A stretch of 64,000 nt of DNA. Origin: Heptranchias perlo (taxonomy: Eukaryota). The notes beneath the pieces are model-generated. The model did not search any database and was not told where the DNA came from. It worked only from the letters and a program-made list of their open reading frames with translations. The DNA lies in NCBI RefSeq assembly GCF_035084215.1, contig NC_090337.1, forward strand, positions 37,386,001 through 37,450,000, read 5' to 3'. Shown here piece after piece: positions 9,746 through 39,101 of this stretch (position 1 is the stretch's first letter; each line of letters begins with the position of its first letter). The position numbers and the translations under genes were made by a program.

Positions 9746-11885
9746 CTAAATCATTGTAAACATGAAAGAAAAATCAGAAACAAATCCTGTGCAGTGCCTA
9801 CTGCATGGTGCAGAATAGAAGAATAAATCTCATCACCTATACTAAAAAAAAAATCTCCATCAGATTAATTTTGTAAATTACATATTATTACATCAGGATT
9901 GCATTTTACAGTTTTGGATTTAAAAAAACTCAGCTCCTCCAAAGCTTCCTTAAAAGCAGGAACTAAGTGTCACAAAACATATTTGAAAGTTCTTTATCTG
10001 AATGCACCTAGCATTCGTAACAAAATGGACGAGTTAACGGCACAAATAACTACGTATGGGTATGATCTTGTGGCCATTACAGAAACATAGCTGCAGGGTG
10101 ACAACGACTGGGAATTAAATATGCCAGGTTATTTAACAATCAGGAAGGACAGGCAGGAAGGAAGGGGAGGTGGGGTGGCTATGTTAGTAAAGGAAGGAAT
10201 CACTAATACAGAGAAATGACATTGGGACAAAGGATCAGGATAATGAAACAGTTTGGGTAGAGATAAGGAATAATAAGGGGAACAAAACACTAGTGGGCAT
10301 AGTATTTGGCCTCCTAATAGTTGCAACTCTGCTGGAAGAAGTATTAATCAGGAAATAGTCAGGGCATGTAATAAGGGAACAGCTATAATTATGGGGGATT
10401 TTAACTATCATATTAACTGGACAAATCAAATTGGGCAGGGCAGCCTTGAGGAAGAGTTTATTGAGTGTATTAGGGATGGATTTCTTGAGCAGTATGTAAC
10501 TGATCCTACAAGGGGGAAAGCAACCTTGGACCTGGTCCTGTGTAATGAGCCAGGATTAATTAATAATGTCCTAGTTAAGGATCCCCTTGGAATGAGTGAC
10601 CATAACATGGTTACATTCCATATCCAATGAGAGGGTGAGAAGGTTGGTTCTCAAACAAGCGTACTGAGCTTGAATAAAGGAGACTATGATGGTATGAGAG
10701 CGGAATTGATTAAAGTGGACTGGGAAAATAGATTAAAGGGTAAGACGGTACATGAGCGGTGGTGTTCATTCAAGGAGTTATTTTACAACTTTCAAAAAAT
10801 ATATATTCCACTGAGGAAAAAAGGGTGTAAAAGAAATGACAGCCATCCGTGGCTAAGTAAAGAAGTTAAGGATAGTATCCGACTAAAAACAAGGACATAT
10901 AAGGTAGCCAAACTTAGTGGGAGGATAGAAGATTGGGAAGTCTTCAAAAGACAGCAAAGAGTAACTAAAGGATTGATTAAGAAAGGGAAGATAGATTATG
11001 AAAATAAATTAGCAAAAAATATAAAAACAGATAGCAAGAGTTTCTATAGTTATATAAAAAGAAAAAGGGTGGCTAAGACAAACATAGGTCCCTTAGAGGA
11101 TGAGACCGGGAAATTAATGGTGGGAAACATTGAAATGGCAAAAATGCTGAACAAATATTTTGTTTCAGTCTTTACGGTAGAGGACACTAAGAATATCCCA
11201 ACACTGGACAAACAGGGGGCTCGAGGGGCGGGGGCGGGGAGGAGCTAAATACGATTAAAATCACTAAGGAATTGGTACTCAGTAAAATAATGGGACTCAA
11301 GGCGGATAAATCCCCTGGACCTGATGGCTTACATCCTAGGGTCTTGAGGGAAGTGGCAGTAGGGATTGTGGATGCTTTGGTAATAATTTTCCAAAATTCT
11401 CTGGACTCGGCAAAGGTCCCGGCAGATTGGAAAACTGCTAATGTAACACCCTTATTTAAAATGGGTAGTAGGCAGAAGGCTGGAAATTATAGACCAGTTA
11501 GCCTAACATATGTGGTGGGTAAAATTTTGGAATCTATTATCAAGGAGGCAGTAGCGGAACATTTGGATAAACATAATTTAATAGGACAAAGTCAGCATGG
11601 CTTTACGAAGGGGAAGTCATGTCCGACAAATTTGCTTGAGTTCTTTGAGGACATAACGTGCAGGGTGGATAAAGGGGAACCAGTGGATGTAGTGTATTTA
11701 GACTTCCAGAAGGCATTCGACAAGGTGCCACATAAAAGATTATTGCTCAAGATAAAGCATCACTGGATTGGGGGTAATATTCTGGCATGGGTGGAGGATT
11801 GGTTATCTAACAGGAAGCAGAGAGTTGGGATAAACGGTTCATTCTCGGACTGGCAACCAGTAGCCAGAGGTATTGCTGCAGTTAT

Positions 11886-12256
11886 GAGGACGGCCTCAAC
11901 CGGGATCTTGGGTTCATGTCACGCTACACGTAACCCCACCAGCAAAAAGGGGGAAAAAAATTTATATGTTTTTTAAAATTCTCTCTCTCTCTCTCTCTGC
12001 CATTTTAAGTTTCTTTCTGCCTGCCTGTGTAAAAGACACAATGTATATCGAGTGTACTGGGACGTGCTGTTCTCCGTGACTGGCCTGTTTGAATAACAAC
12101 GACACCTTTTGATTGGTGTGATGCTGTCCCAACATCGTATAAGATATGCGATTTGAGAACCTTTTCATTCAATCATCTGACGAAGGAGATAATCTCCGAA
12201 AGCTTGTGATTTAAAAATAAATTTGTTGGACTATAACCTGGTGTTGTAAGATTCCT
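11886..12256 (+). mobile_element. Penelope-like retroelement 3' fragment flanked by a 9-bp TSD
   Basis: Begins with EDGLNRDLGFMSRYT* (GLN-type GIY-YIG C-terminus of Penelope/Poseidon ORFs). TGCAGTTAT is duplicated at 11877-11885 and 12257-12265. Contains a hammerhead core. Confidence 0.8.
12171..12211 (+). ncRNA. Minimal type-I hammerhead ribozyme
   Basis: AAUCAU-CUGACGA-A-GGAGA-UAA-UCUCC-GAAA-GCUU-GUGAUU: intact core, stem I AAUCAU/GUGAUU, stem II GGAGA/UCUCC, palindromic AGCU in place of stem III. Confidence 0.8.
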
Positions 12257-13529
12257 TGCAGTTATATAAGGTATTGGTGAGACCGCACCTGGAATACTGC
12301 ATACAGTTTTGGTGTCCATGCTTAAGAAAAGACATACTTGCTCTCGAGGCAGTACAAAGAAGGTTCTGGGGATGAGAGGGCGGACATATGAGGAGAGGTT
12401 GAGTAGATTGGGACTCTACTCATTGGAGTTCAGAAGAATGAGAGGCGATCTTATTGAAACATATAAGATTGTGAAGGGGCTTGATCGGGTGGATGCGGTA
12501 AGGATGTTCCCAAGGATGGGTGAAACTAGAACTAGGGGGCATAATCTTAGAATAAGGGGCTGCTCTTTCAAAACTGAGATGAGGAGAAACTTCTTCACTC
12601 AGAGGGTAGTAGGTCTGTGGAATTTGCTGCCCCAGGAAGCTACATCATTAAATACATTTAAAACGGAAATCGACAGTTTCCTAGAAGTAAAGGGAATTAG
12701 GGGTTACGGGGAGCGGGCAGGAAATTGGACATGAATTTAGATTTGAGATTAGGATCAGATCAGCCATGATCTTATTGAATGGCGGAGCAGGCTCGAGGGG
12801 CCGATTGGCCTACTCCTGCTCCTATTTCTTATGTTCTAATACAAGACATTTACTAAAATTATGTTGTTGCATGGCATTCACCAGCTTAAATCTACATTTT
12901 GTAAATATAATTTAGCTTTCCATTAATAAAACAATGATATTGCGCACAAACCCCTCTCCAGGACTTGGCACCAAAATTTGCTTAAAGCTTGCAAAGCTCA
13001 AGTCAACAATAGATAACCAATCATTTCAATCAAATGGTAAGCAAATACATGGAATGCTGCCACAATGGCTATGCACGTTATGAAGTATGAAGTTAAAAGT
13101 ACAGTGGAACTTTAATTACACCCCATAAAGGGGACCACCCATATGGTTAATAGAAATTAGCAAATATTAAAATCTCCAAATTTGGTCCTGCGGGGATGGT
13201 ACTGTAATAACCTAAACTCATGAATGAAGACAAGTGCAAAACAATTGACATTAATTAAATTTCATCTTTCCTTGAGCTGGAAGATTGATTTCTTTCAGGC
13301 ACAGAATTAGTGTTAATGGGTTTTGCAATTAGGCAACATTTCACATAAGATTTTTATCTTGAAGATTATGGCAAGTAATTGGAATGCAGATAATTGAGAA
13401 TCCACTATGTGTGAAAATGTGGAATCATCTAGTTACCAAATATCAAAAAGTTAGTACCAAATCATGATCCTTTTATCACAAAGTTACACAATGGGTAAAA
13501 GAAGTATTGCTTGGCCTGTCTGTAGTCAG

Positions 13530-16805: not shown

Positions 16806-16966
16806 AAACAGAAAATGCTGCAAATACACTGGTCAGTCAGCATCTGAAGAGAGAAAAGATGGATCTACACCCAAAATATTACCATATCTTTTCAGATACG
16901 GAGTGACCTGCTTGTTTATTTCCAACATTTTCTGATTTTATTTCGGATTTCCAACGTTTGCAGTTT
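16806..16966. repeat. Palindromic Penelope-derived short element (copy 1, decayed)
   Basis: aaacagaaaatgctg...cagcatctg at the left and cagatac...tgacctg...tccaacattttctg at the right form inverted arms shared with copies at 18372, 34955 and 38883. Confidence 0.6.
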
Positions 16967-17813
16967 ATTTTTACTCTGCTTTAGAGTCGCCTCCAGTAAC
17001 AACAGACTAAAGCCAGTGCAAAGTCACCAGGGCTTATTTTTTTTTGGGGAGGGATGCCCGTGACCTCGGGTTTCAATGTTGGGTCCACCATTTAGGATCT
17101 AGGCTAAAGGTCTTCAGAGAAAACGTCAGTCCGACTGAGATCAAAGTGAGGAAAAAACATCGTATATGCTCAGTTGTTTGTTGCTACTCAATCTACCCGG
17201 CAAAAACATTAAGAGGGTATACAAGATTGTCCTTTTAAGTAGCGGGTCACTCGCTTGAGGAAACCCTGGATCAGTCAACTGCCTTAACGCCACAGACACA
17301 TTCCCTACCCCCCACAAAAGTATTTAAGATATTTCTACAGGTGACTGCCCACATCTGCACTTTTCAGTTGGGAGTATTAAACTAGGAACACTGTAATCTG
17401 ACCTGGCTAAACACTCCATCCCAATGATGTAGTACTTATATACAACGAACGATGTTTCATTAACTGTCGCAGTTTTTTTCAATCTACATGAAATTGTACA
17501 TCCAGCATCAGCACAGGTCAGTTTCTCAATGTGTTTAACATGAACACTCCTTATTGTAAATATTTAAGTTACAGTCCGTGCTACAAGATTTACATCACCA
17601 ACAGGAATATTCAGGTAAAATCAGTAGTTGCATTAAAAAGAAATGCAGTTATAAAGATATTTTATTGTTCGAATAACCGGTGTCGTTCACTCGCCTCAAC
17701 CAATGCTGCAGTTTGTCTCTCTAACGGGTACCGGGAGATGGGGGTCGCAGAGTGAATGTTCCGTGACCGCTTTCAGAAGCGTAAACCGGAATCATACTGA
17801 AACACTCCGTTAC

Positions 17814-17943
17814 CTTCAACATGGTCCGATGCGGCCTCGGCGAACAGGAACTCCTTGGAGGAGTCGGCGAGTCTCGAATCGAATGCGGACGAGTCCACCA
17901 GGAGACTCCTGGCGCTGGCGGCCACTGCGGTCCACTCCGCCAT
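17814..17943 (-). CDS. ECT2: ECT2 first coding exon (ATG at 17943)
   Basis: MAEWTAVAASARSLLVDSSAFDSRLADSSKEFLFAEAASDHVE vs human MAENSVLTSTTGRTSLADSSIFDSKVTEISKENLL. Donor G|gtaacg, phase 1. Confidence 0.9.
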
Positions 17944-18034
17944 TGTAACACGGGCTGTGAAGAGCAGCTCCCCGCAAGACAAGGGTAACGGCTCGCTCAC
18001 AATTAAAGCGCCTTCCGATACAGCGAGCACTCAC

Positions 18035-18345
18035 AAACCGCGAGCCCACGGTCAGCGCTTTTTTTTAAAAAAAAGAAAGCCCGATTTAAATTTGGCCCTG
18101 ACGCGGGTTCAAACGGGTTTAGAACCTCGCCTTCCACTGTCCTCAACGGAAAATTCAAAATTCGATCCCCTCTCGTAAGCGCTTATCTGATTGGTCCAAA
18201 CTGATATCCTATTGAAAGTGCGAGCGGCTGCACCTGATTGGTTGTCACCGGGGAAACTAAGGTTCTAGAGTGTGTAATTGATTCTGACGACACCTGAACG
18301 ATGTCCGATGGCTCAGCGAACCATCATCTTGTCCTCGATTGGATA
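18035..18345 (-). promoter_or_regulatory. ECT2 promoter/5'UTR exon with CHR-like and CCAAT elements
   Basis: CpG-rich. Minus-strand TTTGAA at 18108-18113 and 18154-18159. CCAAT (plus ATTGG) at 18190-18194, 18237-18241 and 18338-18342. Candidate 80-nt 5'UTR intron 18034(GTGAGT)..17955(CAG). Confidence 0.65.
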
Positions 18346-18371
18346 AAGGTGATCCTTTGAGGGAGGTTCTG

Positions 18372-19297
18372 CAACAAAAGCAAAATACTGTGGATGCTGG
18401 AAATCTGAAATGAACACACGAAAATGCTGGGCAGCATCTGTGGGGAGGGGGAGGGCAAATCCGAGGACCTTCTGGTGGGTCTGCTCCTGGGCCTGGCCAT
18501 CCACAGGTTGGACGCGGCCCGTGGGGGCAGTCGCTCCGACTGTCTGCCTCTCTTCCGCGGTATGCTCCACGCCCAGGTGGCCCTGGAGAGGGAGCACGCG
18601 GTGTCTGCCAGTACATTTGAGGCTTCCCGTGACCGGTGGGTACCACAGGGGCTGGAGTGCATCCTGGATCGTTATAATAAAATTATTATTTGACTCTGTT
18701 ATTTGGTCTAGGATTTGTTGGAAATAAAACACACCCTAAACCACCACCCCCCCCCCTTATAAAAGGGGGACCTAAAACACAAAAAATATACTGCGGATGC
18801 TGGAAATCTGAAATGAACACATATGCTGGGCAGCATCTGTGGGGAGGGGGAGGGAAAATCCGAGGACCTTCTGTTGGGTCTGCTCCTGGGCCTGTCCATG
18901 GTGGTCATCCACAGGTTGGACGCGTGGGGGTGGTTGCTCTGGCTGCTTGTTTCTCTTCCCCGTCTTGGCCCTGGAGAAGGATGCTTGAGTTCTTCCCCGA
19001 TCAGTGGGCATCGATGTGTAGTGGATAGCGAAAAGAATATTATTATTTAACTTGATGGTTCCTTTCTTTGATATGATTTGGGTGTTTATTGTTTTTGCCC
19101 CTCTAAAAAGGGGGCACTTTTGTTAGATTTCTTTTATTTGCGTTGATGATACAAAGGCATCTGTGGCGTGAGAAACAGAGTTTAACGTGTCAGGTCGATG
19201 ACCTTTCATCAGAACTCTACCTGAAACGTAACTCTGTTTCTCTCTCCACAGATGCTGCCTGACCTGCTGAGTATTGCCAGCATTTTCTGTTTTTATT
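18372..19297 (+). mobile_element. Composite repeat: palindromic Penelope-derived element interrupted by a Tx1/L1-like LINE 3' end, with a tandem duplication
   Basis: Two units (~18372-18775, ~18778-19150), each made of the left arm plus EGKSEDLLVGLLLGL...LEREHAVS...RWVPQGLECI (Tx1-like ORF2 C-terminus). GCATCTGTGG at 18434, 18833 and 19157. Right half of the palindrome at 19157-19297. Confidence 0.7.
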
Positions 19298-20100: not shown

Positions 20101-20689
20101 GCAGGACATAATTAAACTAGGGCACGCAGATGTAATTCAGTCCCCATTTTAATGTGTGTCAAATATAGATAGGCAGTTTCCATTATAAATGAGGAAACAG
20201 AAATTGATAATGGGAAAAATTGACAAAGTTAATGCAGATGCAAGATTTTTATTATATTACTTTTCGATCTCATATAGTGTTGTACACGGAGAGTCAAGAC
20301 CAAGTACAGCCGTGTGGCAAAAGTAGTCGTAGAGGGTATGGGATAACTGCACCACACCATGCCAACATAATTTATTCCCTATTTCAAAGTTACATATTCT
20401 GCTCTGACTATAAAAAAATTCTGATATTGTAATTCTATATTGTTAAATTTCTGAAATAAAACACCAACATCAATTTAGAAGTTTATTAACAAAGACCAAC
20501 AGCAATCATAAGTTAAAACAAATTATCATAATAAAATACAATCATCCAGGGGAAAAAATACTCCGTCAAAAATAAACAAATTCCCAAAAAGAAACACAAC
20601 AGTTCGAAAGGTATCTCTGTGTTAAATAATTAAGTCTCCAAATATCATAAAAGTTTTACCAAACTGTATAATGGGGCACAATTGTGTAT

Positions 20690-21070
20690 GCAACAAAGCT
20701 GGAACCCAGAAAACCTGTTGCAGTATTGAATGCCATGGCACAATAAGCGACCCATGCACAAACATTGGAGTAAGTAAAACCTGCGACCTCCACCACCGAG
20801 AAGGACTAGAGCGCCAGGTGCATAGGAGCACCATCACCTCCAAGTTCCCCTCCAAATCACACACTTGGACATATATCGCCATTCCTTCTTTATCACTGGG
20901 TCAAAATCATGGAACTTCCTACCTAACACTATTGTGCAAGCACCTTCATTATACAGAATGCAACGGTTCACAAAGGCCCACTACCACCTTCTCAAGGGTA
21001 ACTAGAGATGGGCAATAAATGCCGGCCTTGCCCGCGACGCCTACATCCCGAGAACGAATAAGAAAAATAA
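20690..21070 (+). mobile_element. CR1-like LINE 3' end
   Basis: cgacctccaccaccgagaaggactag...ggcaataaatgccggccttgcc...catccc...gaata followed by an A-rich tail. Confidence 0.6.
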
Positions 21071-21324
21071 CATATAAATCACCTTACTAATGTTGAAATA
21101 TACAGGCTTCACTGATATATCTGTAATACTGTTTACCTACAACTTTAAAAATGTGCTTAAGTTATAAATAACTTGTTCTTCCTTGCAAAAATCAAATTTC
21201 AGTTACTTATATTATACTAGTTTATCCCCTGTGGCCTTGCACATGGGGAGTAAAGACCAAGTGCAGAATTCAGATCAAACAGGATTATAGGATAATTGAA
21301 TTAGAGCAAGAACGGGGAGAGGGT

Positions 21325-21440
21325 AATTGTAAACAATTTTACAACACCAAGTTATAGTCCAGCAATTTTATTTTAAATTCACAAGCTTTCGGAGGCTTCC
21401 CCCTTCGTCAGGTGAACGATGTGAAATGAAATCCTCGAAA
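21325..21440 (-). mobile_element. Penelope-like 3' terminal fragment (related to 11886-12256)
   Basis: Minus strand reads tttaaaataaaattgctggactataacttggtgttgtaaaatt, matching 12210-12255. Confidence 0.75.
21377..21417 (-). ncRNA. Minimal type-I hammerhead ribozyme (second copy)
   Basis: GUUCAC-CUGACGA-A-GGGGG-AAG-CCUCC-GAAA-GCUU-GUGAAU, with intact core and stems. Confidence 0.8.
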
Positions 21441-21815
21441 ATGAGGGTAGGTAGAGGACAGAGGGGAGAGGGTAGGTAGAGGACAGAGGAAAAGCACAAG
21501 ACAGAGAAAGGGCAGGGGGAGGAGGGATGCAAAAGCATAGGAGGAGGTTGAGGAGAGATGTGGGGAATAAGGTGTAAAGAGGAAGGAGAGAGGGAAGGAA
21601 GGTGAGGAGAGAAGAGGGAGAAAGACAGGGAAAGGGGAGTAGGGGAGAGGGAGAAGAGGAGAGATGTAGGGGGAGGAGGCCAGGGACAGAGGAAGATGAG
21701 GGAAAAGAGGATGGAGGGGGAGGATAGGGTAGGAGAGAGGAGGGGCAGAGAGGAAGAGAAGGAAAGGAGAGGATAGAGGAGAGGGGGAGATGAGGAGGAT
21801 GGGGAAAGAAGGACA
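21441..21815 (+). repeat. Purine-rich (GA) low-complexity tract
   Basis: ~375 bp, strongly G/A-dominated, with a local repeat gagggtaggtagaggacagagg. Confidence 0.85.
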
Positions 21816-24800
21816 GCAAGCTTGGCTCCCCGTGTGAGGTGGGTGAGATGTGCTCAGGTAAGGAGGCTAGATTGCGGTCTCCAAAGTGGGGGAAGGGTTA
21901 TTTGGCTAGTCAGTGTCGGGGGGGGGGGGCGATAGTTGTGTTCAGATGAGGTATGTGGGGTCCGATCACCAGAACAGTGGTCAATATGGGAGGGGTTAAT
22001 GCTGGCTGAGGGATAGTTAGCTAGTCGGTATTGCTCAGTGGGCTGGTGGTGTGTAGTCACTGTACTTGTGCTCAGAGAGGGATCGGGGGGTGGTGGTTAG
22101 CACAATATCTCTTCTCAGTGGGAGAAATTCCAATGTGAAATTGGAAAATAGTGATGATAGTTATGCTGTAGCCAGGGTTCAATGCTGGAGGGGAAGTTTG
22201 TGCTCTTTGCTTGTTGGGGGTGGGTGAGGCGGGCATTCAATGTAGTGTTTTGTCCAGTTGTAATATTTATGTTCAGTGGGTGGGATTGATAATAGGTTTA
22301 TGGTTCAATTCTAGAATTTCTGCTAAGTGGGGATTCAGCTGTGAATTGCAGTTAGAATCTACATTCTATCATGATCCGATTTGCTGAGGCAAACATTGCT
22401 ACTTTTTTCCTGCCTAGTGGCAGTTATTCTCTGGTGCAGCACTAAAATAGAGAACTCAGATTTAGCAGTTGAACGAAGTATGGTTCATTTTAGTGACTGG
22501 CTTAGGCGAGGAAGATCAATTAAACCAACCGAAGTTGTTCTGACGATTGCTTTTTCTTCTAATTTAAGGGAAAAGCTGTTAAGAGGCAGGGAAGCGTTGG
22601 TGTCGAAAGGTTCAGAACAATTTAATAAAACAGGCTTTCCACCATCCAATCCTGCCTTGCCAGTTCATGCTCTTTTCCTGGGCCTGCTTTTCTTCCCAAA
22701 CTGACCCACTCTGAGACCTCTTGCCAGGGCCTCCAGCTGCTTTAATAAGAATCTGCTTTGCTCCCTGAGCTATTCCGCTCTGGTTCTCTCCCATTGCTGA
22801 TTCCCACTGCTTTCCTTGAGGCTTCCAACAACTGCTCCCCCCAATTCATCCCATTGGTTCTTGTTATTTTTCTGGGCTTGCTTTCCTCCCTGAACTCATC
22901 CGCTCTTTCCTGTTCCCACAGCTTTCACACACTACCTGGCTGCTTTAATGGTGACCCGTTCTGTTCTCCTGGTCAAGCTTCTTTCTGTACTGCTTGAATT
23001 ACATGTACCTTTTTAAAAAAAAAATTAGCCCTGCTGTATTTTTTTTAAATGACCGTTATACTTTTTATAATGATATCAAATCAGAAGTGTGAATAGAGCA
23101 AAATATATGCAAGTAACTGAAGAGAACTTTAGAAAGGAAGAACTTGCATCTTAAATAAATTTTGTAGATGTAGATAAGTAGTATTAAAATATTGTACCTA
23201 TGAAGCTATGCATTTTTTAATCAATAAGTTATGTATGCTTCCTGTCAGTTATGCAATATATTGCTTCAGTACATTTGCTATTGACAGCAATAGATCAATC
23301 ACTGTTGTATTTAGATTGCAGCAGGATTGCAGTAAATAGAAACCATGGGGGCAATTTTTGTCTATCACCCTGATTTTCAACATGAACAGGGCAGTAGCAG
23401 GACCAATTTTTTTTAAATCGTGCCAAATTTGCACCCTAGGGCTGCCTGATGTAATTTTCGAGCAGCTCAAATATTTGGGAGTATCTGTTCTTTGCAGTTT
23501 AAAATTTTAAAAATATCCCAAATAATATAACTGCTGCTTGGGAACCTTATAAAGTTTTAAATTAGTTCGACTACAGCCAGCTTGAGTCTAAAGCAGTGTC
23601 AAACTATCTCAAGTTGATTGTTATAAGTATACCATTAAAATATGTACAGCAAATAGTAGGAGCTGCCACAATATACTATCACCCAATATTCCTCTCCCTT
23701 GTACCAACATGTACAAAAGATGTGAATGTCCCAGAAGCAGCCTTCTACCTGTAAGCACCCAAACCCACCCGTATTTCCAGGTTTGCCTATATGGGACATG
23801 GGCCAGGATGCCCAGGAAAATCCACTGACAACTGCTTCTCTGACCTGCAACTTTCTGTGCTCACAACATCTGACAACACATCCTCAAACACAGAGATAGG
23901 CATTATCACCGAATATATCGCTTCCTCTTTAGTAGGGGAAAAGCCATGAACAATAGGACTGTTTGATATTGTACTAAAATGTTCTTATCTAATGTTCTAG
24001 ATATAAATACAACTTTTTCTCAATTAAATATCAAAACAATTAAAAATAGCTTTTATTATTTTGCTAAGCTGCCACTCATGACCATGTTCTAAAAGTACAT
24101 GTCGGATACCTGCGAAATATATTTAACAGGAGTTATATTTTGGGATTTTTTGGCCATTTTCCCACAGAAAGGATTTGGAAAAAAGTTAAAGCATTGTGAC
24201 AAGTTTAGAAAATGCTGAGGCAAAAGCTAGTTAAGATGCTAATGAGCTGGCTTTGAAGTTTCCTTTGGCTGTAAATAATAAGCAATTTGTTAGTGTGTCT
24301 CAATCAAAAACCACCTCATATTCATTGTATTAGAGTCTTTATTCTCTTTTTTTTGGCAGTAAATGGAAAGATACAATATTGAATCTGGCAGTGAGACTTT
24401 TTGAAACAGATACTGCACAGGCAAAGATGCAAGGGCTTTCATGGAGACTAAGAGGTCAGAAATGCTGGATGTCATTGTTTAAGTAAGACGACCCACTGGT
24501 GTAGGAAGGTTTGGTGTGTTCTTTATTTTGTGTTAGTACATGAAAATAAATTGTACAGTTTGAATCAAGTGAGTCTGATCATAACTGGTGTACAGTATGT
24601 TTACCTTACTGTTAAAGTGGTTTAATGATTCATATCTGGCCTTATCTCACCAAGTGTTGGTTCGGTCCACGGTCGGCAAGATCAAAGAAGTACACATGCA
24701 AAAGATACGAATATCCAGTTCAGGTCATAAGAGGGTTATGCTAGCCCACAAAGATAGAGGGCAGTGTGAGTCAACTTCTGTAAAAAGAATGACACACAGA

Positions 24801-26989
24801 GCACTTAACAGAAGTGACTGTGGCCTCTGTGCCATCAAAGGCATCACCAGCAGTCCCACAGTTGTAACAAGGACACAGCATTTTCTGTTTATACCAGGAG
24901 TATCCAATTTAATGGAGCTTCTTTCTGCTGCTTTCTTCTGCTGAATTTGATGCAGCAGTTCCATTGGCTAGTTTGTAGTTCTGATTTAAACTCATCAACT
25001 TCAATCATGCATGTCAAGTTACTGCCTGCAAGGATAATCATGCTGAATACACCATTACCTTCACGCTAGAATGGCTGGTACAGTATAGCATAAATTACTA
25101 GAGGTTCTTCCATCAGGATTTATGAATAATAAAATGTTTTGTTTTATCATTAATACAATTGCCCAAGACACAATAATGTTCATTAAAATTTGCAGCCATT
25201 GTATGCTACTGCAACTTGCATTATAGTTTAAATTTGAAATGTAGTTACAATTCAATGTTTACATGACACTTGGTTTCTGCGTCTACTAATTTACAAGATG
25301 ACTTCCATGGGTTAAACATATGTTATGCTCACTAAGGGAGATGAATTGCTTTGGTTGTTACTTCTGAATGAATTTAAAATATTGTGACCGTGATCATGAG
25401 CAAGTCAAGTGGAGCTCACAATTATACTGCAATGATAGAGGAAGAGATTTTTTTTATTTGGTACTTGTGTGAATTATTTGCATCACTAGTGCAACTAATT
25501 AACTTAATGGAATAACAGCAAGCAGGCAGCAACAAAAGATGAATGCAGCTCAAATTTGTTTTTGCACCAGCATGAATCTCCTGTCAGAAAAAAAAACAAA
25601 GTTGCAAGAAAGTAGCTCATCATTTTCTTTTACATGTGTCTCAAAAGTTTTGGGTGAGAGGGACTCCCTATAACATCTGTTCCCAAATCTGTTGATCCAG
25701 CTGATGCCAGTCTTTGACCCAAAGTTGGCAGTTGTGATCAGTTCCAGTGTCAGGTTGCTAGCAATCAAGATATCCAGGAACTGCCAGCCTAATTTGATAT
25801 GCAGTTTTATCGAGCATTAAGCAGTGCCAAAACTATTTAATGTAATGGGCAGGTGCAAAGTGTGTAGAACAGGCCAAATTGGGTAGCCTGTCAGCTCACA
25901 AGATGTACTGTGCCTAAGGCTGAATGGCCCAGTGCATAGCATCTCTACGAATAGCCAAGCACGAATTTGAAACTGAGCCCTCGTCTCCAATTTTTAAGTA
26001 GGAGAAGCAGCTTTGATATGTTTGAGGGAGCAGAAATGCCTGGTCCATCGTTACATTCTCCAAAGTAAAATTCTGACACACTGATTTGATGATCTCAGCA
26101 CTATCCTAGTCTTATGATGTAAAGATTCAGCCTAGACCTGGACCAAGACTGGTCATTTTGCTTCCAATATAGCAACACAGCACAATAATATCCTTTCAGA
26201 TGGTCAGTGTCTGAGATTGCAAAGATGAGAAAGTTTGGCACAAAACACTCAAAACAAGATTCACAGATACTTTCATAAATTTCCATAGGATTCCCTTCAG
26301 TTGTCCTTTTGACCATCAATGAATTTTCCACAGAATTTACAGGCTCAGTTGTCTGGAATTCATCAGTTACTACTAGTGAAAATGCCTTGCTTAAAATCTG
26401 CATTTAGATTTTAAAGCTAAAGCTTGGCATATTAAAGCCTTTTTTGCAGCAATAAGAAACCCTAGTCCAAACACTTGCCCATCAAAAAAGTCTAATTTCT
26501 CCTAATCCTAGGAGAGAAAAAAAAATTACGTGAGGACCGATCAGTTAAAGTGTACTCTCTGAAGCATGTTCAATGAGAAAGACACAGATCAGCTGGTTTT
26601 GAAGTTGTCAGTCCAGCTTTTTAACCTAAAGCAAGGAAAAACTGAAGATAATTATTGAAGTTGGCAAATGAGATTTTCATGTTGAATCTCTCTGTTTTAC
26701 GTCGCAATCCCGTTATTTGAATGCAATATTTTGGTCCTGTTCTTCTTCAATAGGACCACATCTTGCCTGGAGAATTTATTTTCCATATATTTAATGTACA
26801 TGTTTTCCTACTTTTTACAGGTCCGAAGAGGAAAAGATAAAATATTAGGTCACAGATACTTTCATAAAGTATCATTTTAGTGATGAGCATCAAATGAAAA
26901 AGATGAAGAAAACATAATGAGCAAGAGAAGTGTGGGTGACTGATTACTAAGAAGCCACTTAGCAGAAACAAAACAAAATCCTGAAGCAC

Positions 26990-27590
26990 AAAATATATAT
27001 TGTCCCTGGTTTTCCCCATTCTAGAAGATAGCGTGAATGACCGTTAGTCTCCTGTTTAAAAAGTTTTACATATTGTAATGGCACTTTTTTTAAAAAAAAG
27101 CACGATAGAATGATTACACAACGAGAATGGTACACAATATTCCAGATGGTATCTGACCAATCTTTTCACTTAATAGTAGGAAGGTTATTATCATTCTTGA
27201 AGAGGTACAGAGGTGAGCAATGAAGACAATCCTGGCCACCATAAATTTAACATAAGGAAAGGTTAAAAAGTTGGGACTCATTTTCTTTGCAAGAGACACT
27301 TGAAGGTGATTGAACGCAAGTTCAAGTTTATGAAAGGGAACTGACAAAAACAGATGCGGGCAAATTGCACAGTGATGAAGGATTCCAAAACTAGGGACAC
27401 AAATTAAAAATTAGGAAGTTAGGAGCAAGGGAAGTCAGGCAAAGTGTAAGGAGTTAGCAGGGAAGGCCACTGAAGTAAACAATGTAAATTAGATTAAGTA
27501 CATTTCCAACAAAGGACTGGGGTAGATCTGTGAAAAAGGGACAGGCTCATTGGCCCCCAAAGCCTTTTTCTAAAAATGCTTATGCTCTTA
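26990..27590 (+). mobile_element. Highly decayed CR1 3' fragment
   Basis: gaagaggtacagagg...caatcctgg, aaggtgattga, ctagggacacaaattaaaa resemble the CR1 ORF2 C-terminus and 3' end. Confidence 0.45.
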
Positions 27591-28465
27591 ACCTCAACGC
27601 ATGTAGAATTTGAAACTCTTCCTTAGAGGCAAATATATTCAAAGAGCTATCACAAGCCCATTGAGAAGATCAGCAGCAATATATTGTAATAGTGATTGGT
27701 ATTTTATTTCTGATTTACTGAAGGTTGTTAGAAAATTACTTATATCGGCAAAGATTTTCTTTTTTAGTATTGGAGTTAAAACACTATCAACCAGCCATTA
27801 TCTGCTGAAATAAATTTGAGGCACAGAATCCAGTAATCCATCCAGACATTAGTGCTGAATTTATACTGTAGCTATCAGTCTGAGACTAGTAGCTGCAGAA
27901 CTGGTTCCAGTCAAACATTACCTTGCTTATACTGTTTCATATGCTATGCTCCTACCCAGGAGAGTTTTGCACATGTGCCAATGTCTGCTCCCAGCAGTAA
28001 AAATTTAGATGTTTATAGAACACGGGTCCCAACATTTAAATATGCTCCAGGCAAGTTAAAAAGTGCCCAGTGGAACCAACAGATTAATTCCAATTTGCAA
28101 CAGACCCCCGAGTACGTTTCAAAACCAGGTTTGACGATTCACTGGAGTAATATTCCATGTGGTGTTTTGAGAGACTTGTTGCTGGAGCACGATCAAGCTC
28201 TGACTCCAGAGTTACACTGCATTTTTAGTATCATTTTGCAGCAACACTACCGTTACAGTATAAATACACCCCAAGCCCAACTTCAACACAAGCCAGTGTG
28301 ACTTAACATTAATGAGTGATGACCCGACTATACATTTTAGTTAAGAGTTGAAGGTAATAGAAAATTTCGCCAATTTATGCTGTCCAAAAAAAATGCACTA
28401 ACACGTAACTTTCAGATTCTGCAATTGGACAACATATACAGATAGATTCTTTCCCCTTTTTATTA

Positions 28466-29425
28466 CTATGTATTACTATTCCACAGATCATCAGTCTTAC
28501 TTTCTCTCAGTTGATTGATAATTTTGGTGAGATTGTCAATTTTCTGCTCTTTTCTTTTTAGTTTTTGTTGGAGTACTCTGAATTTTTGCCTATGTTCTTC
28601 ATTCTTCTTTCTTTCCCACGCAAGCTTCTTTTCTAGAGTTCTCCTGATTATATCTGGGCAAGGACTCATAAAGTAACTGTGATCCTGAGGAAATGTCATT
28701 CCTGACAAATCCTGATCATCATGAGAAGATAGCACCATCTCAGAGGAACACTGCAGTTCTTCAGAAGCCAGAACTGGAGTGGATAGATGGGTCTCCGTTT
28801 CTGGGATGAGCACTTCTGTAGATATCCAAGTTGTTCCTTCTGATATTGTTACTCTATCAGATATTAGGTCTGCAGATGTTGTAAATAAACATGGCAAAAT
28901 ACTAGTGCTCACTGCAGATACATCCATTGAACCCACGAGCGCAGTGGATGTATCCGATAGTACTTCAGGTCTCGATAATACATTGGCTGTCCAATGGAGG
29001 GCATCTGAACACAGAGCTGCAGCTGAATCTTGAGATTGTTCCTCTGAATGAGTTGTTATTAATCCACTTGAAACTGATTCCATCTTTGCATCTGTTGAGC
29101 ATGTTTGAGGTTGTGCACTGCAGTTAAAGACTGTGAGGACTTCTGAAGACTCTGCTTCAGATTTTAGAGGAACTTCCAATACTTGAGAGAATTCTGCTAA
29201 GTTCAGGACCGCTGCTGCTGCTAGTTGAGCTAGTCGCCCTGTATTAAGAGTCTCTGTAGTTAATGTAGACTGCACATCCGTGATTTTAGTTGGCTCAGCT
29301 GGCTGACTTATTGCTTCATCAACCGAATCAACTTGCAACGGCAAAAGCGACATCTGTACCTCCGAAGTTCCCGTATGGTGTCCAGCAGAAGCTTTTGCCT
29401 TATGTGACCTTCTGGAGCTTGTGGT
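28466..29425 (-). CDS. THAP domain-containing protein exon 3 (low-complexity linker, DHSY HCF-binding motif, coiled coil, stop)
   Basis: tttgcag|ACC acceptor and a 960-nt open frame ending in TAG. QDHSYF followed by RTLEKKLAWERKKNEEHRQKFRVLQQKLKRKEQKIDNLTKIINQLRE. AATAAA at 28464-28459. Confidence 0.9.
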   Translation of the reverse strand, partial: TTSSRRSHKAKASAGHHTGTSEVQMSLLPLQVDSVDEAISQPAEPTKITDVQSTLTTETLNTGRLAQLAAAAVLNLAEFSQVLEVPLKSEAESSEVLTVFNCSAQPQTCSTDAKMESVSSGLITTHSEEQSQDSAAALCSDALHWTANVLSRPEVLSDTSTALVGSMDVSAVSTSILPCLFTTSADLISDRVTISEGTTWISTEVLIPETETHLSTPVLASEELQCSSEMVLSSHDDQDLSGMTFPQDHSYFMSPCPDIIRRTLEKKLAWERKKNEEHRQKFRVLQQKLKRKEQKIDNLTKIINQLRESKTDDLWNSNT

Positions 29426-30135
29426 CTGCAAATTAGTTAAAATTAATGTTTGTATTGTGTTATTTCTAAAAAAAATAATCTAAATACATTTTACACGGCA
29501 TCATAACATCTTTGAGATAATTTAAACTCAATGTGCCCAGTGCTACAAAAAACTTCAGGGGCCATTCAAAATGGTCATTTTCAGTAGTACACAAACAAAA
29601 TCCCATGTCCTCAAACTCAAACCTCAAGTCAAAACATTTACTTGTTTTAAAAATACGTGTAATGTACACTTTAAAAAGAACTAGCGCCCTCAGTCATATT
29701 CTTGACTTCTACAGCCAGTAAAAGCGTACCAATTCAGTATTCCCACAAAAGATACTGCCTGCAATTCTTTTGAGACACCGACAGTTAACAATGGTACACC
29801 AAAGGGATCATGCTTTTGAGGACACCCTCTCAGCAGTTCTTCTAAAACACTGCAAGACTTTGGTAACTATTTAATTCAGTCAATTACAATGTCATCTAAA
29901 GCAATCAGTATTTGGGTTATTTGCTACTTAATGGAGAGGGCTAAAAGTCCTTACAAAAAGTGTACATTGATTACCCCCGCCAATAGACAACTTACATGCC
30001 ATATATAATTGTGAAAACTTATTTGTGGTCACTTGGAGCAAAAATAAATGGGATGCAAAAATGGGTTTTAATCAACAAGTTACCAAAAAATCATTTACTA
30101 AAATAAATGCCGAACACAATAATGATTAAAACTAC

Positions 30136-30325
30136 CTTATTTTTAGGAGGTGGAAATATGGTTGGAACAGAAGAAAATTTTAAATGCCTTCGATCATTCC
30201 GTTCCTCAAAACAATCTTTTGTGAAGTGATCACTACAGAGAGTTGCTCTTGGTGATGGTATCCAGTTTTCCCGTGCTACAGCTTTCAGCCAATTTGCCAT
30301 GAGATCTGGTCTTGAAATTGGAAAT
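30136..30325 (-). CDS. THAP domain-containing protein exon 2
   Basis: FPISRPDLMANWLKAVARENWIPSPRATLCSDHFTKDCFEERNDRRHLKFSSVPTIFPPPKNK carries the THAP P-W-C-H-F-P signature and AVPTIF box. catag|...|gtagt, 190 nt. Confidence 0.93.
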
Positions 30326-32999
30326 CTATGTTGACAGAGCCCAAAATAAAACAGAAGTAGGGATTCAACAAAACTTACTGAAATTGCAAGTATCGTAAAT
30401 AGCTTTTTCAATTTTTAATATTTTTTAAATTTGAGAAGCTGTACCCATTAGTCAACGCATCTGCTCTGCAACTCTGTGCATAATTGTCTGTCAGCAACAG
30501 CCCCATTCCGCCAAGTCGTCTTAAACTCACTTAACATTTAAATGAGTTTGGTCAGTACAATTCTCTTAATAGAAAGGTGGGGTTTAAGTCATAAAAATTG
30601 GACCACCAACCATTAAAGCTCTGCAATTCTTAGGATGTGAAAATAAACAGATACTCAACAATAGGATAAACAAAAACATTAATAGGTTAGAAAATACATA
30701 TTAGTAGGCATGTCAAAAATCCTAAACCTACGTAATACTGGTACAAGACATAACCAATGGCGCTGAATAAGAAAATAACAATTAAAACTGCAATAAACTC
30801 AAAATAAATCTCTCACTCTGCAAGTACCTCCTATGAAAACTGATCGAAATCCCTCCAAACTAAAAACTAAGTCATGCAGATTACTGGATACAAAAGCCTT
30901 CAGGTCATAAATTCATGCAACACTCAAAAGGAAAATCTCAAACACACTTTCAGCTTATCTGGCATATTACAAGTAAAAACATTATAAAATGTCAATCAAA
31001 AAAGAAAAATACTGACCCTAATAAAAACACTTACTTCCTGTTGGTTAAACATTGAATGTAAACATCTACCAACCAAATAAAGCAATCCACACTAAGCAAA
31101 GGCATGACACATTATGGATTTTTCACCAGATGTTGATTTAACACGTCAACCAAAGAAAAAGCAAAACAATCAGAAAAACAATTCCCACAGAAAAATAATA
31201 TTGAAAGTTCTTGTCCTTACACTTGCATAAACAAATGGTGAAAGACTAAAAACTTTTCTTGAAATGACCACAAATTTTTCATGTATTCTGCAACCTCACT
31301 GTCCAAACTCTAACCTCAGATTAACACATCAAAGATAAGTTTGCAGGACTGCTTCACATACACCATGCACACTGCATACCTAAATGGTGTGCCCAAAATT
31401 GGTAAACAAAGAACAATTTCACAACATATCAAAATACAATTTTATACGGTGCAATTGCTACAATTTGGGTTGTATCCCGTCGTTTCTGTTGAGCAGGAAT
31501 AAGAAATATCAAGCAAGCTTGCAATTCTTATAAACTGACATTAGTTTGTACACAAATTACATAGGAAAGCTGGTTTCCAGGCCAGTGTGTCATTTTGTGC
31601 ACTGGAAACAGTATGGGATATCACAATACACTCCTGACTTTTCCAACTGACTGAAAATACCACACTGACAAAATGTGAACAGAAGCAAGGCAGTAGCTTC
31701 GATATACTTAACTTTGTGCGATCCGTTCCAAAACAATAAAAGTTCCTCTTTAGCAGCTTTACATGAGAAATGAACCTACGAGTCCCTCATTAATCCCGAA
31801 ACCCATACAGTGGCATGGGAAACTGGAGAACATCAGTCTGTTTATATCTCACTTTTTCCTTTGATGTCCAGACAGATGCAATGCAAGAGGATCTCGTACA
31901 ATAATAATCAAATTGGAATTACTTCTTGTGAAGAAAAACCATCAAGTCAGTTTCCAACCCCCCACAGACTGCCTCTCGGGCTTCCAGATACAATTTTCAT
32001 ACCACTAGAACAAAGCAAAACTGCATCTATATACTTGACAGGATTGTGTCTTATCAACCTTCCCTAATGCCAACAGAAAATTTCTCCCCGAATGCAGTCA
32101 CAAAAATTGTAGCAATACTGATGCAGCTAAAAATTTTTTTAAAACTAGTAGATCTCCTGTAGCGTTGCCCGTGGCAAGTCAGAGGATTCACTGCTTTATA
32201 ACAATAGGGGTGTTAAGATCATGTAGGGGAAATATCAGGCCCACTGATTTACAGGAATTGAATAAGTAAAATTCCATTTATATTAAGTGGTATTCTGGAA
32301 TCACTTCTTGTGCTTTGGGGGTTGAATTCCATGGCTAGCTATTGTTCTGTGAAAACCCTAAATGAGCAGCCTTTACTATTCCTTCACCTATGTAAATAAT
32401 TTTTTTAAAAACCTTTTATCAGTTTTGAAGCCAAGTATATGGCAAGACAGCATGCAAGATGTATCAGTTGAAATTAGATATCTGGGAGATATAACAAATT
32501 CTACTGCCATAAACAAAAACATTGCTGATACATTTCTTATTTTAGTGTGGGATGGCTCAGGTTCCAAGTCACGCCATTTTCAGAAATTTCTCGGTTTGAG
32601 CTAGTTAAGAAAATATGCTTATGAAACAGTACTAGCAATAGAAACTAACAGGAAAAATGATTAAAGCCATGATGGCCAAAGAGATGTATGCAGACAAACT
32701 TTACCATCCATCTACTGAAAAAGGGAGTGTAGCAGTGTGGATCTGGCAGGATAATGGAATGAAACATTTTTTAAAAAAGAAGCACTTTCCAATATGCCAG
32801 ATTTCAGACCCCATAGTAAAGTGCTTTAGTAAACTTGTTTTAAACTGCAGGAAAAGCTATTAAACAGAATCTCATAATAATGACAAATATAATATATCCA
32901 ATGAGGTTGGTTAACATACACAGCAGCATCACATCTATTTTGGCAATTGCTTTAGAGATAGGCTGTTAAAAGAGAGCAACGAACTTTGCGATTCTCCGA

Positions 33000-33490
33000 G
33001 GTATTCCAATGCTCTCCTGGCTGGCCTCCCATCTTCCAACCTCCATAAATTTGAGCTCATCCAAAACTCTACTAACCCATATCCTAACTCGCACCAAGTG
33101 CTGTTCACCCATCACCCCTGGCTCCCAGAACACCTTGACTTTAAAAGTCTCATGTTTGTTTTCAAATCCCTCCATGGCCTCGCCCCTCCCTATCTGTGTA
33201 ACCTCCTCCAGCCCTACAACCCTCCGCCATCTCTGCGCTCCTCCAATTCTTGCCTCTTGCGCATCCCCGATTTTAATCACTCCACCATTAGCGGCCGTGC
33301 CTTCAGCTGCCTAGGCCCTAAACTCTGGAATCCCCCCCCCCTAAACCCCTCCACCTCTCCTTTAAGACGCTCCTTAAAACCTACCTCTTTGATCAAGCTT
33401 TTGGTCACCTGTCCTAATATCTCGTGGCTGGATATCAAATTTTGTTTGAAAATCGCTCCTGTGAAGGGCCTTAGGTCTTATTTTTACTAC
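33000..33490 (+). mobile_element. L2 LINE 3' fragment
   Basis: FKSLMFVFKSLHGLAPPYLCNLLQPYNPPPSLRSS...GRAFSCLGPKLWN is a typical L2 ORF2 C-terminus. Confidence 0.85.
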
Positions 33491-33705
33491 CTTAAACGCA
33501 AGTTGTACCTGATTAAAATCGCCATCTACCTGCGTCACCGTGACTTACCCGCCTTATACTAAAGAAAACTGCGGTTTTACAAAATTTGCGCACATTTGAG
33601 ATTTTACGGTCGGAAATTTTATCAAAGAGCAATTTTTTTTTAAAGGAAAAGGCCTGGAGAAAAGTTAACCTCACAGCACCAACGAGAATTGGCCTCTCAG
33701 GGTAC

Positions 33706-33776
33706 CTGTGGAAAGTTATGCCGCTGCCTTTCTTGAAGCGGTTCTTACAGTCCAGTGCGCTGCACGAGACTGGCAT
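33706..33776 (-). CDS. THAP domain-containing protein exon 1 (ATG)
   Basis: MPVSCSALDCKNRFKKGSGITFH(R) with CxxxxC. 71-nt exon ending AG|gtacc, phase 2, which joins exon 2 in frame. Total 406 aa. Confidence 0.93.
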
Positions 33777-34484
33777 CTTCCAGGTGCGGGCAGCGCCGGC
33801 CGCGAGCGGGCACCGACTCTCTGCCTGGAAGAAAGATGGCGGCCTGGCGGCGGTGACGTCACTTCGAATTCGGAACCTGGCCTCCCGAATAGATTAGAAC
33901 GCTGGGGAGAAAAAAAAAAGACACGAAACATTCGCATTCCTTAATTCGAGTCAATCCTTCAATGCGCGAAGGTCATAAATATGATCGGCTTTATTTATAT
34001 ATATTTTTTTAAAACCCTTCATTCACCCTTTAAGGAGGAATCAGTACCGCCCTTTCTTTTGTTTTGCAGCCTCCCCTCCCCCCCCCAAACTAGCGGAGCC
34101 CCAAGGATTGTGGTGGCTTTAATTAAACTGCAGTGACATTGTCTCCACAAATAGCACAAACGGATTTAACAAACTTAAATGGTTTTCCGGTGCCCAGGGG
34201 ATTTTTTTTGCGCAGTGCACCCCCTCCCTCCCTCCCTCCCTCTGCGTGGCCATTCTCTTCCGGTAACAACCGCGGCCCGTCATTTCTGAAAGTGAAATGT
34301 TACCAGCGTTAAAAACTACAACTCCCGGCATCCCGCCCTCCCCGCCCGATTGGCCGACTGATAAATCCGCATCGGCCTGATTGCCCCCCCCCCCTGTGCT
34401 GCCGGCGTTAAGTCACTGTCGCGGGGTGAATTGTATCGCTGTGTTTCCAGGAGCGTTTCCATTTTTGCCCCGGATTCCGCAATA
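33777..34484. promoter_or_regulatory. CpG-rich bidirectional promoter between the THAP gene and NCEH1
   Basis: YY1-type AAGATGGCGGC 33833-33843, CRE palindrome TGACGTCA 33854-33861, ETS-like CTTCCGG 34257-34263, ACTACAACTCCCGGCA 34315-34330, ATTGG 34349-34353 and GC boxes. Confidence 0.75.
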
Positions 34485-34622
34485 ATGCGAAAAGTCGTCC
34501 CAGTGATCGTGATCGCTGCCGCTTTGACAGCTTACTATGTGTACATCCCACTGCCGAACACGGTCTCCGAGCCCTGGAAACTGATGCTCCTGGATGCAAC
34601 GTTCAGAGGAGTCCAGGATATG
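34485..34622 (+). CDS. NCEH1: Neutral cholesterol ester hydrolase 1 exon 1 (N-terminal membrane anchor)
   Basis: [46 protein letters not shown]|gt. The [22 protein letters not shown] segment is characteristic of NCEH1. 138 nt. Confidence 0.95.
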
Positions 34623-34954
34623 GTATAATTTCTCCTTTTGTTGACGTTGCTTTCTTTTCAAGTTGCAGAATATTTAAAATTGAATCGTAGAAGTATCATA
34701 ATACGTTGACCTTTTTGCATGTTCGTAGTTTCAAAGGTGTCTCAGACTTGCAAATTATAAAATGGTTCAGTCACTTGTCTTTCTCTGCTGCTTATGTAGC
34801 GTGGCACTATTCATGCATACATCCTTTCGCGTACATCTGTCCTGTTGCAATACTCAAGTAATAAGGTACTCCCAAAGAATGTCACATCAAAAAAAATTCA
34901 CGTCGGATCACCCTGTAGATAATGACGATGAAATGAGGAGTGGCAGGCGGTGAT

Positions 34955-38882: not shown

Positions 38883-39101
38883 AAACAAAAACAGAATATG
38901 CTGGAAACACACAGCAGGTCAGGCAGCAAACGTAGAGAGAACAGACAAGGGGTTTCAGCTATAGACCCTTCTTCAGAACTGCAGTCCGTGGCCAAAACAC
39001 CTTTTCTGTTCTGTCTTTGAATGCTGCCTGACCTGCTGAGTGTTTCCAGTATTTTCTGTTTTTGCTTCAGATTCCCAACATCTGAAATATTTTGCTTTTT
39101 G
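38883..39101. repeat. Palindromic Penelope-derived short element with a decayed hammerhead
   Basis: Inverted arms aaaaacagaatatgctggaaacacacagcaggtcaggcagc / gctgcctgacctgctgagtgtttccagtattttctgttttt. Minus strand contains CTGAAGA-agggtctatagct-GAAA. Confidence 0.7.

What the first reader, a model, noticed from the sequence alone, without database searches (positions are those of the whole stretch)
21377..21417. Second hammerhead shows compensatory changes relative to the first
Seen: the core and GAAAGCUU are identical to 12171-12211, but stem I changes AAUCAU/GUGAUU to GUUCAC/GUGAAU and stem II changes GGAGA/UCUCC to GGGGG/CCUCC. All substitutions preserve pairing (A-U to U-A, U-G to C-G, A-U to G-C, plus wobbles). 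Covariation between two copies within one window is direct evidence of selection on RNA structure. This copy is on the minus strand between the THAP gene end and the ECT2 promoter, so THAP read-through RNA would contain it (inference).
Basis: partly seen in the sequence, partly recalled or inferred. Interest (0 to 1): 0.7.

Follow-up and report, generated by a model that had tools for sequence, protein, structure and literature searches.

The report
Penelope retrotransposon stub with minimal hammerhead
This 41-base motif has the full layout of a known minimal hammerhead ribozyme and sits in a recent 117-base stub of a Penelope-like jumping gene, one of about 82,000 such motifs in this genome; its base-pair-preserving changes are real but likely reflect selection on the jumping gene, and this lone copy is predicted to cut its host RNA poorly or not at all.

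Summary
Observation confirmed; interpretation partly supported. The motif at 21417-21377 (minus) is a minimal type-I hammerhead: CUGACGA, extra A, G10.1-C11.1, GAAA, palindromic AGCU in place of stem III. It lies in a 117-bp 5'-truncated pLTR stub of a Neptune/Nematis-type Penelope-like element (PLE), bounded by a 7-bp target-site duplication. It is 100% identical to 40 of 45 other listed matches and is absent from the matching RNA contig of a related organism. The 12171 copy comes from a sister subfamily (proteins 96% identical). The genome holds 82,458 such motifs (control 3), so 1.6 are expected per 64 kb. All seven stem substitutions keep pairing (chance 0.0005-0.006). Selection therefore likely acts on PLE lineages, not on this copy. 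RNA contigs cover both flanks, consistent with a long THAP 3' extension, but show no sign of cutting; the class needs a dimer. PLE hammerheads and their covariation were published in 2014, and this scan noted the same on other DNA. Ordinary.

The parts
21326..21442 (-). 117-bp 5'-truncated pLTR stub of a Penelope-like element (subfamily 2), ending without the 30-40-bp tail
   Evidence: 100% identical over 116 nt to the pLTR behind the RT ORF in L209; 40 of 45 other listed matches are 100% identical over 114-119 nt; family copies diverge from the window outside it
21443..21449 (-). Upstream target-site duplication, TACCCTC
   Evidence: Sequence; present once in the organism B contig (tables 5 and 5c)
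21319..21325 (-). Downstream target-site duplication, TACCCTC (first T shared with the element)
   Evidence: Sequence
21377..21417 (-). Minimal type-I hammerhead: stem I 21417-21412 with 21382-21377; CUGACGA 21411-21405; extra A 21404; stem II 21403-21399 with 21395-21391; GAA 21390-21388
   Evidence: Sequence, fold, alignment A2 and pair counts
21383..21387 (-). Palindromic AGCU (21387-21384) in place of stem III, then U17 (21383); predicted cut between 21383 and 21382
   Evidence: Sequence; unchanged in 91 of the 91 tail-anchored copies that reach it (n=101); cleavage not tested
21367..21372 (-). AATAAA carried in by the pLTR, 11-16 nt 3' of the predicted cut
   Evidence: its use as a poly(A) signal is not shown
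11886..12256 (+). 371-bp stub of sister subfamily 1 (ORF end plus pLTR) with a 9-bp TSD (11877-11885, 12257-12265), in an ECT2 intron, antisense to ECT2
   Evidence: 99.5% identical to the L068 element; ECT2 exons on the minus strand on its far side
12171..12211 (+). Minimal hammerhead of subfamily 1
24154..33904 (-). THAP-domain gene: exons about 33904-33706, 30325-30136, and 29425 to at least 24154 (stop at 28466, long 3' UTR)
   Evidence: Splice joints with CT..AC ends in run contigs; Pfam THAP E 5e-12
20224..24183 (-). Transcribed stretch containing the stub; likely a distal 3' extension of the THAP mRNA (strand and continuity inferred)
   Evidence: Contig pieces in X1-X4 (one sample) and in X5; minus-strand AATAAA at 20253-20248 near where the listed pieces end
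17500..18500 (-). CpG island, likely the ECT2 promoter and first exon
   Evidence: CpG o/e 1.02 and 0.86; ECT2_BRCT0 exon at 9745-9563

Best explanation
This is the minimal hammerhead motif of a Penelope-like retrotransposon's terminal repeat, carried here in a recent 117-bp truncated insertion with a 7-bp target-site duplication; its stems were likely kept by selection on active element lineages, and this lone copy is predicted to be a mostly uncut passenger in the host RNA. In the intact element (3.04-kb tandem units, pLTR-ORF-pLTR) two motifs would pair through their AGCU palindromes to form stem III and cut after U17, processing long transcripts, possibly helped by the element's protein (inferred from PMC4209133 and PMC11167929). 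The stub likely arose by target-primed reverse transcription that began about 57 nt 3' of the cut site on uncut or re-ligated RNA and stopped early.
For: Shown: identity to a pLTR behind an RT ORF; intact 891-aa RT + GIY-YIG ORF between two hammerheads 3040 bp apart in the sister subfamily; 96% protein identity between the subfamilies; 82,458 motifs against 3 in the control; TSD and an empty site in organism B; tail or no tail in 50 and 51 of 101 copies, as described for PLEs. Fold: 89.3% of 440 cells paired, against 27-48% when slid; at the eight inner pairs 21 one-sided changes keep G-U, 2 are two-sided (one row) and 5 break the pair. Stem II pair 5 shows G-C 12, A-U 10, C-G 4, G-U 2. Copies decay after insertion: G12 to A in 7 of 101 (three of the seven are repeats of one insertion). 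Listed contig depth is similar on both flanks (60/80, 33/35, 22/29, 26/29; weak evidence). No cis partner: the only other intact motif in the window is on the opposite strand.
Against: No cleavage assay, raw reads or stranded data were available, so inactivity of this copy is inferred. Contigs cannot show ends, strand or level. The covariation score (0.188 against 0.146 shuffled, 0/500) is inflated by relatedness, as the tool warns, and R-scape was not run. The tree rests on 92 columns, and mosaic pLTRs may confound it. Genomic copies show no sharp pile-up of 5' ends at the cut site (111 at +1, 153 at +3, 33 at -4), so there is no evidence here that the ribozyme cuts in vivo even for the element. 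The empty site rests on one contig of one run, laid at 85% likeness.
Confidence: 0.88

Rival explanations
1. The stub cuts the extended THAP transcript in trans, by pairing its AGCU palindrome with abundant PLE RNA or with help from PLE protein, and so lowers or shortens that isoform.
For: Sense orientation in a transcribed stretch (strand inferred); the palindrome is unchanged in 91 of 91 copies; family contigs are very deep in X4 (a poor measure of expression); the anole PLE hammerhead cut only when PLE protein was added (PMC11167929).
Against: A 4-bp intermolecular helix is weak (the whole AAAGCUU duplex is -4.9 kcal/mol); even linked dimers cut poorly (PMC4209133); similar contig depth on both flanks; organism B transcribes the region without the insert.
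Confidence: 0.06
2. The stub affects the host only through the AATAAA it brings, acting as an extra poly(A) signal in the THAP 3' extension.
For: AATAAA at 21372-21367 on the minus strand.
Against: Contigs continue for more than 1 kb beyond it, to 20224-20269.
Confidence: 0.03
3. The fold is kept in the element for a reason other than cleavage, such as a protein-binding or reverse-transcription landmark, or it is a slowly decaying relic.
For: No pile-up of copy ends at the cut site; in the anole element, catalytic mutants did not affect insertion in vitro and no reads ended at the cut site (PMC11167929); the outer pairs tolerate mismatches.
Against: The catalytic boxes are nearly invariant across subfamilies while the neighbouring pLTR aligns only patchily; only position 7 varies freely (C, G, U), as for a true catalytic core.
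Confidence: 0.03

Closest known systems
Minimal hammerheads (min-HHR) in pLTRs of metazoan PLEs (Cervera and De la Pena 2014, PMC4209133; parts 1-2 of 4 of the text read: abstract, results, discussion, start of methods)
   Same: [quoted passage not shown]
   Different: Copy number (82,458 for one pattern, against about 4,000 in coelacanth and 9,000 in Xenopus in that paper); stem II is 4-5 bp here against 7-8 bp in the Schistosoma motifs.
EN+ PLEs of the Neptune/Nematis type (Craig et al. 2021, PMC8557442; passages read)
   Same: [quoted passage not shown]
   Different: Neptune versus Nematis was not resolved: no reference sequences were at hand for a tree.
PAc (Poseidon) of Anolis carolinensis (Frangieh et al. 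2024, PMC11167929; main text read)
   Same: pLTR hammerhead, two 3' end classes (tail or no tail), and no sign that cut RNA is the main template.
   Different: In PAc the hammerhead overlaps the ORF start; here the cut lies about 90 nt upstream of the ATG, and the protein has the linker cysteines that Poseidon lacks.
Non-LTR retrozymes and amphibian satellite hammerheads (PMC7229834, passages; bioRxiv 10.64898/2026.07.22.740005, part 1 of 5)
   Same: Type-I hammerhead that needs a dimer; very high copy number (126,247 in axolotl).
   Different: Those are 170-400-nt tandem repeats without an ORF; this is a solo stub of an ORF-bearing element.

Membership tests
PLE minimal hammerhead (min-HHR) | CUGANGA and GAAA boxes, U16.1-H17 cut site, stems I and II, type-I topology | tested here: met
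PLE minimal hammerhead (min-HHR) | Extra nucleotide between 9 and 10.1, and a G10.1-C11.1 pair | tested here: met
   A at 21404; G-C in 39 of 40 haplotypes
PLE minimal hammerhead (min-HHR) | No stem III; palindromic 15.2-16.2 | tested here: met
   AGCU; unchanged in 91 of 91 copies that reach it
PLE minimal hammerhead (min-HHR) | Located in the pLTRs of an RT + GIY-YIG element | tested here: met
   L068 and L069: hammerheads on both sides of an 891-aa ORF; L209: ORF followed by this exact pLTR
PLE minimal hammerhead (min-HHR) | Self-cleavage as a dimer | not testable with these tools
   No assay or raw reads; the genomic 5'-end test showed no sharp pile-up
EN+ PLE, Neptune/Nematis type | Single ORF with DKG, RT, CX2-5CxxC linker and C-terminal GIY-YIG | tested here: met
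   Translation; RVT_1 E 3e-10; GIY-YIG E 5e-4, 20.7 bits, just below the 22.6 cut-off
EN+ PLE, Neptune/Nematis type | Tandem and inverted pLTRs, optional 30-40-bp tail | tested here: met
EN+ PLE, Neptune/Nematis type | Placement in an RT phylogeny (Neptune versus Nematis) | not tested
   No reference set fetched
Canonical monomeric hammerhead (Rfam families) | Stable stem III; score above the family threshold | tested here: not met
   No stem III; no Rfam hit
Non-LTR retrozyme | Short tandem non-coding repeats, each with a hammerhead | tested here: not met
   Solo 117-bp insert with a TSD
Host-domesticated UTR or intron ribozyme | Conserved at the orthologous site across species | tested here: not met
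   The organism B contig lacks the insert and has one TSD copy (one contig, one run)

The most novel reading that the evidence does not exclude
Because tens of thousands of stubs share one invariant AGCU palindrome, any host RNA carrying a sense stub, such as the long THAP 3' extension here, could be cut in trans when PLE RNA or protein is abundant, coupling host mRNA turnover to transposon activity genome-wide.
Probability: 0.06. Interest if true: 0.7.

Novelty: new member of a known kind. Interest (0 to 1): 0.14.

Why it matters
As a finding it is ordinary: minimal hammerheads in PLE terminal repeats, with compensatory changes between subfamilies, were described in 2014 (PMC4209133). Its modest value is as test material. 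It is a young, core-intact stub with a clean TSD and a natural empty allele in a relative, inside a transcribed host region. That makes it a ready substrate for the open question of whether PLE hammerheads cut in vivo and whether solo copies can be cut in trans. Two searches found no paper on this family or on host-UTR effects in the held library (0 hits; 3 hits, none on the point by title and abstract start).

Tried and rejected
Rfam at gathering score and at E<=10: no hammerhead family. The run search listed no holder on record as RNA; X1-X4 show splice joints, so I treat them as RNA. No contig spans the whole insert, so neither cut nor uncut RNA can be shown directly. Downstream contigs reach only 26 letters into the insert, below the tool's 31 for a bridge. 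No joint skipping the insert was listed for X1-X4, but the tables are cut, so this says nothing on polymorphism. X9 and X13 gave no listed piece at the site. Pile-up of 5' ends at the cut site: three copies ending at +3 among 101 prompted genome-wide counts. These gave 111 at +1 (29 of 30 inspected scored as truncated, one of them an internal deletion and five inversion junctions using stem I microhomology), 153 at +3 (21 of 30 truncated, four sharing one flank) and 33 at -4 (14 of 15). The flank-letter filters differ between patterns, so the counts are only roughly comparable; rejected as a sharp peak, though a small excess is not excluded. RNAcofold gave full duplexes, not the catalytic dimer, so it is uninformative. 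The pair 2203 bp apart in L031 was a satellite duplication, not a full element. The idea that the motif lies in an ECT2 5' intron was dropped, because the ECT2 CpG island is at 17.5-18.5 kb. Lunse et al. (PMC5785218) is not held; I saw only its title and a review's summary. No supplementary files were read; they may list cartilaginous-fish motifs.

Full report
Observation. They differ at 7 of 22 paired positions and at 2 loop positions, and all 11 pairs are kept. A simulation gives 0.0005 for this outcome by chance, or 0.005-0.006 with transition bias. The layout is a type-I hammerhead with an extra A after A9, G10.1-C11.1, and AGCU instead of stem III; the predicted cut is after 21383. A relaxed scan finds only these two intact motifs in the window, on opposite strands. 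Rfam does not cover this variant.

What it is part of. Searching the own genome with 21315-21440 gave 1438 candidates, of which 40 were scored; 40 of the 45 other listed matches are 100% identical over 114-119 nt. The 12171 copy gave 871 candidates; its 39 other matches are 99-100% identical. Two loci hold that subfamily as hammerhead, 891-aa ORF, hammerhead at a spacing of 3040-3041 bp. The ORF has RVT_1, a weak GIY-YIG hit, DKG and a CX4CxxC linker, which PMC8557442 (passages) gives as the mark of Neptune/Nematis PLEs. The finding's own subfamily has the same ORF, 96% identical in protein over 773 aa and 96.4% in DNA, followed by this exact pLTR. The pattern CTGANGAAG-N7-16-CCGAAAGCT occurs 82,458 times (reversed control 3) in 3.25 Gb, or 1.6 per 64 kb; the downstream pLTR motif occurs 93,252 times. 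Two per window is therefore the average. Earlier notes call the host a shark; I did not test that.

This insertion. The stub is 21442-21326, flanked by TACCCTC on both sides. One 652-nt contig of organism B (run X5) joins 21325 to 21517 through 33 letters that begin as the window does at 21450. It thus has one copy of the duplication and no insert. The stub is young, and the surrounding RNA exists without it. The other copy is a 371-bp stub (11886-12256) with a 9-bp TSD, antisense in an ECT2 intron.

Covariation tested. From the loci I took 227 motif copies, kept 135 with an intact 5' side, and collapsed them to 52 haplotypes. For alignment A2 I dropped 10 from loci fetched by the truncation searches and 5 identical over the 41 columns, and added 3, giving 40. 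Of 440 cells 89.3% pair, against 86.0% shuffled and 27-48% slid. Four pairs have a two-sided change (7 of 500 shuffles reach that), and the covariation score is 0.188 against 0.146; relatedness inflates these measures. At the eight inner pairs (320 cells), 21 one-sided changes give G-U, 2 are two-sided (both in one row) and 5 break the pair. This is the signature of structure on this strand. Stem I pair 5 is unpaired in 25 of 40 haplotypes (U-A 13, A-U 2). Stem II pair 5 is G-C 12, A-U 10, C-G 4, G-U 2 and unpaired 12. On a tree built from flanks only (45 haplotypes, 92 columns), copy 1's stem I A-U is nested among U.U and C.U relatives. The stem II A-U appears in three separate places, near A.C or G-U forms in two of them. 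So the fold is real and stem II pair 5 covaries repeatedly, but the two-copy comparison overstates the case. The selection is inferred to act on replicating elements, since inserted copies decay (G12 to A in 7 of 101; strict core in 75 of 101).

Host context. Four runs of one sample show the THAP gene spliced (33706/30325, 30136/29425) with a last exon reaching at least 24154. Further contig pieces cover 23171-24183, 21401-23128, 21003-21351 and 20224-21029. The upstream pieces run 40 or more letters into the insert and so bridge that junction; the downstream pieces reach 26 letters, too few to count. A minus-strand AATAAA lies at 20253-20248. Depths on the two flanks are similar (60/80, 33/35, 22/29, 26/29), which is weak evidence against wholesale cutting.

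How it likely works. In the intact element, successive motifs in a tandem transcript would pair AGCU with AGCU to make stem III and cut after U17. PMC4209133 found no cleavage for a single Schistosoma motif and low cleavage for dimers. PMC11167929 found that the anole motif cut only with PLE protein, that catalytic mutants still inserted, and that no reads ended at the cut site. Here 50 of 101 copies carry the tail and 51 do not, matching the two reverse-transcription start sites described there. 5' ends do not pile up sharply at the cut site (111 at +1, 153 at +3, 33 at -4, with the caveats under Tried and rejected). The stub spans the cut site intact, so it was copied from uncut or re-ligated RNA (inference). 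Alone in a host RNA it has no cis partner and is predicted to be nearly silent.

Novelty. This is a new member of a known kind. The scan noted the same on this genome (241 notes fit the look-up) and on other genomes; these are unchecked notes and are not counted as support. The bold reading, trans-cleavage of host RNAs through the shared palindrome, is not excluded but has no positive evidence (probability 0.06). Interest 0.14.

Noticed in passing
window 19212-19185 (-); related repeats near 38884-39063 and 16806-16857: A second, older minimal-hammerhead-like repeat family, with GAAA changed to GACA at 19191-19188. RNA loose ends at 19229 show an intact form with an ACGU palindrome (table 7; self-matches).
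   Followed up: no
L068 5760-5990 against L209 5540-5770: The two subfamilies share 96.4% ORF DNA identity, yet the pLTR between the ORF stop and the hammerhead aligns only patchily, which suggests fast promoter or leader turnover.
   Followed up: partly
L250, L259, L262, L265, L269: Head-to-head inversion junctions that use stem I complementarity as microhomology exactly at the predicted cut site (5 of 30 inspected).
   Followed up: partly
window 11886-12256 within about 10000-12850: The copy-1 stub interrupts an older LINE-like repeat in an ECT2 intron (CR1-type label recalled, not tested).
   Followed up: partly
L031, L203, L205, L206: PLE stubs inside a GA-rich satellite are multiplied by duplication of the satellite, which inflates copy counts.
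   Followed up: partly
window 33700-34630: The THAP gene and a plus-strand gene (NCEH1-like, label recalled) share a CpG island head to head.
   Followed up: no
window 30445-30759: In run X1 the THAP contig starts from an alternative upstream piece at 30445-30759 instead of the 33706 exon (table 8).
   Followed up: no
window 21450-21820 (-): A pyrimidine-rich low-complexity tract is the landing site of the stub; it is also present, diverged, in organism B.
   Followed up: partly
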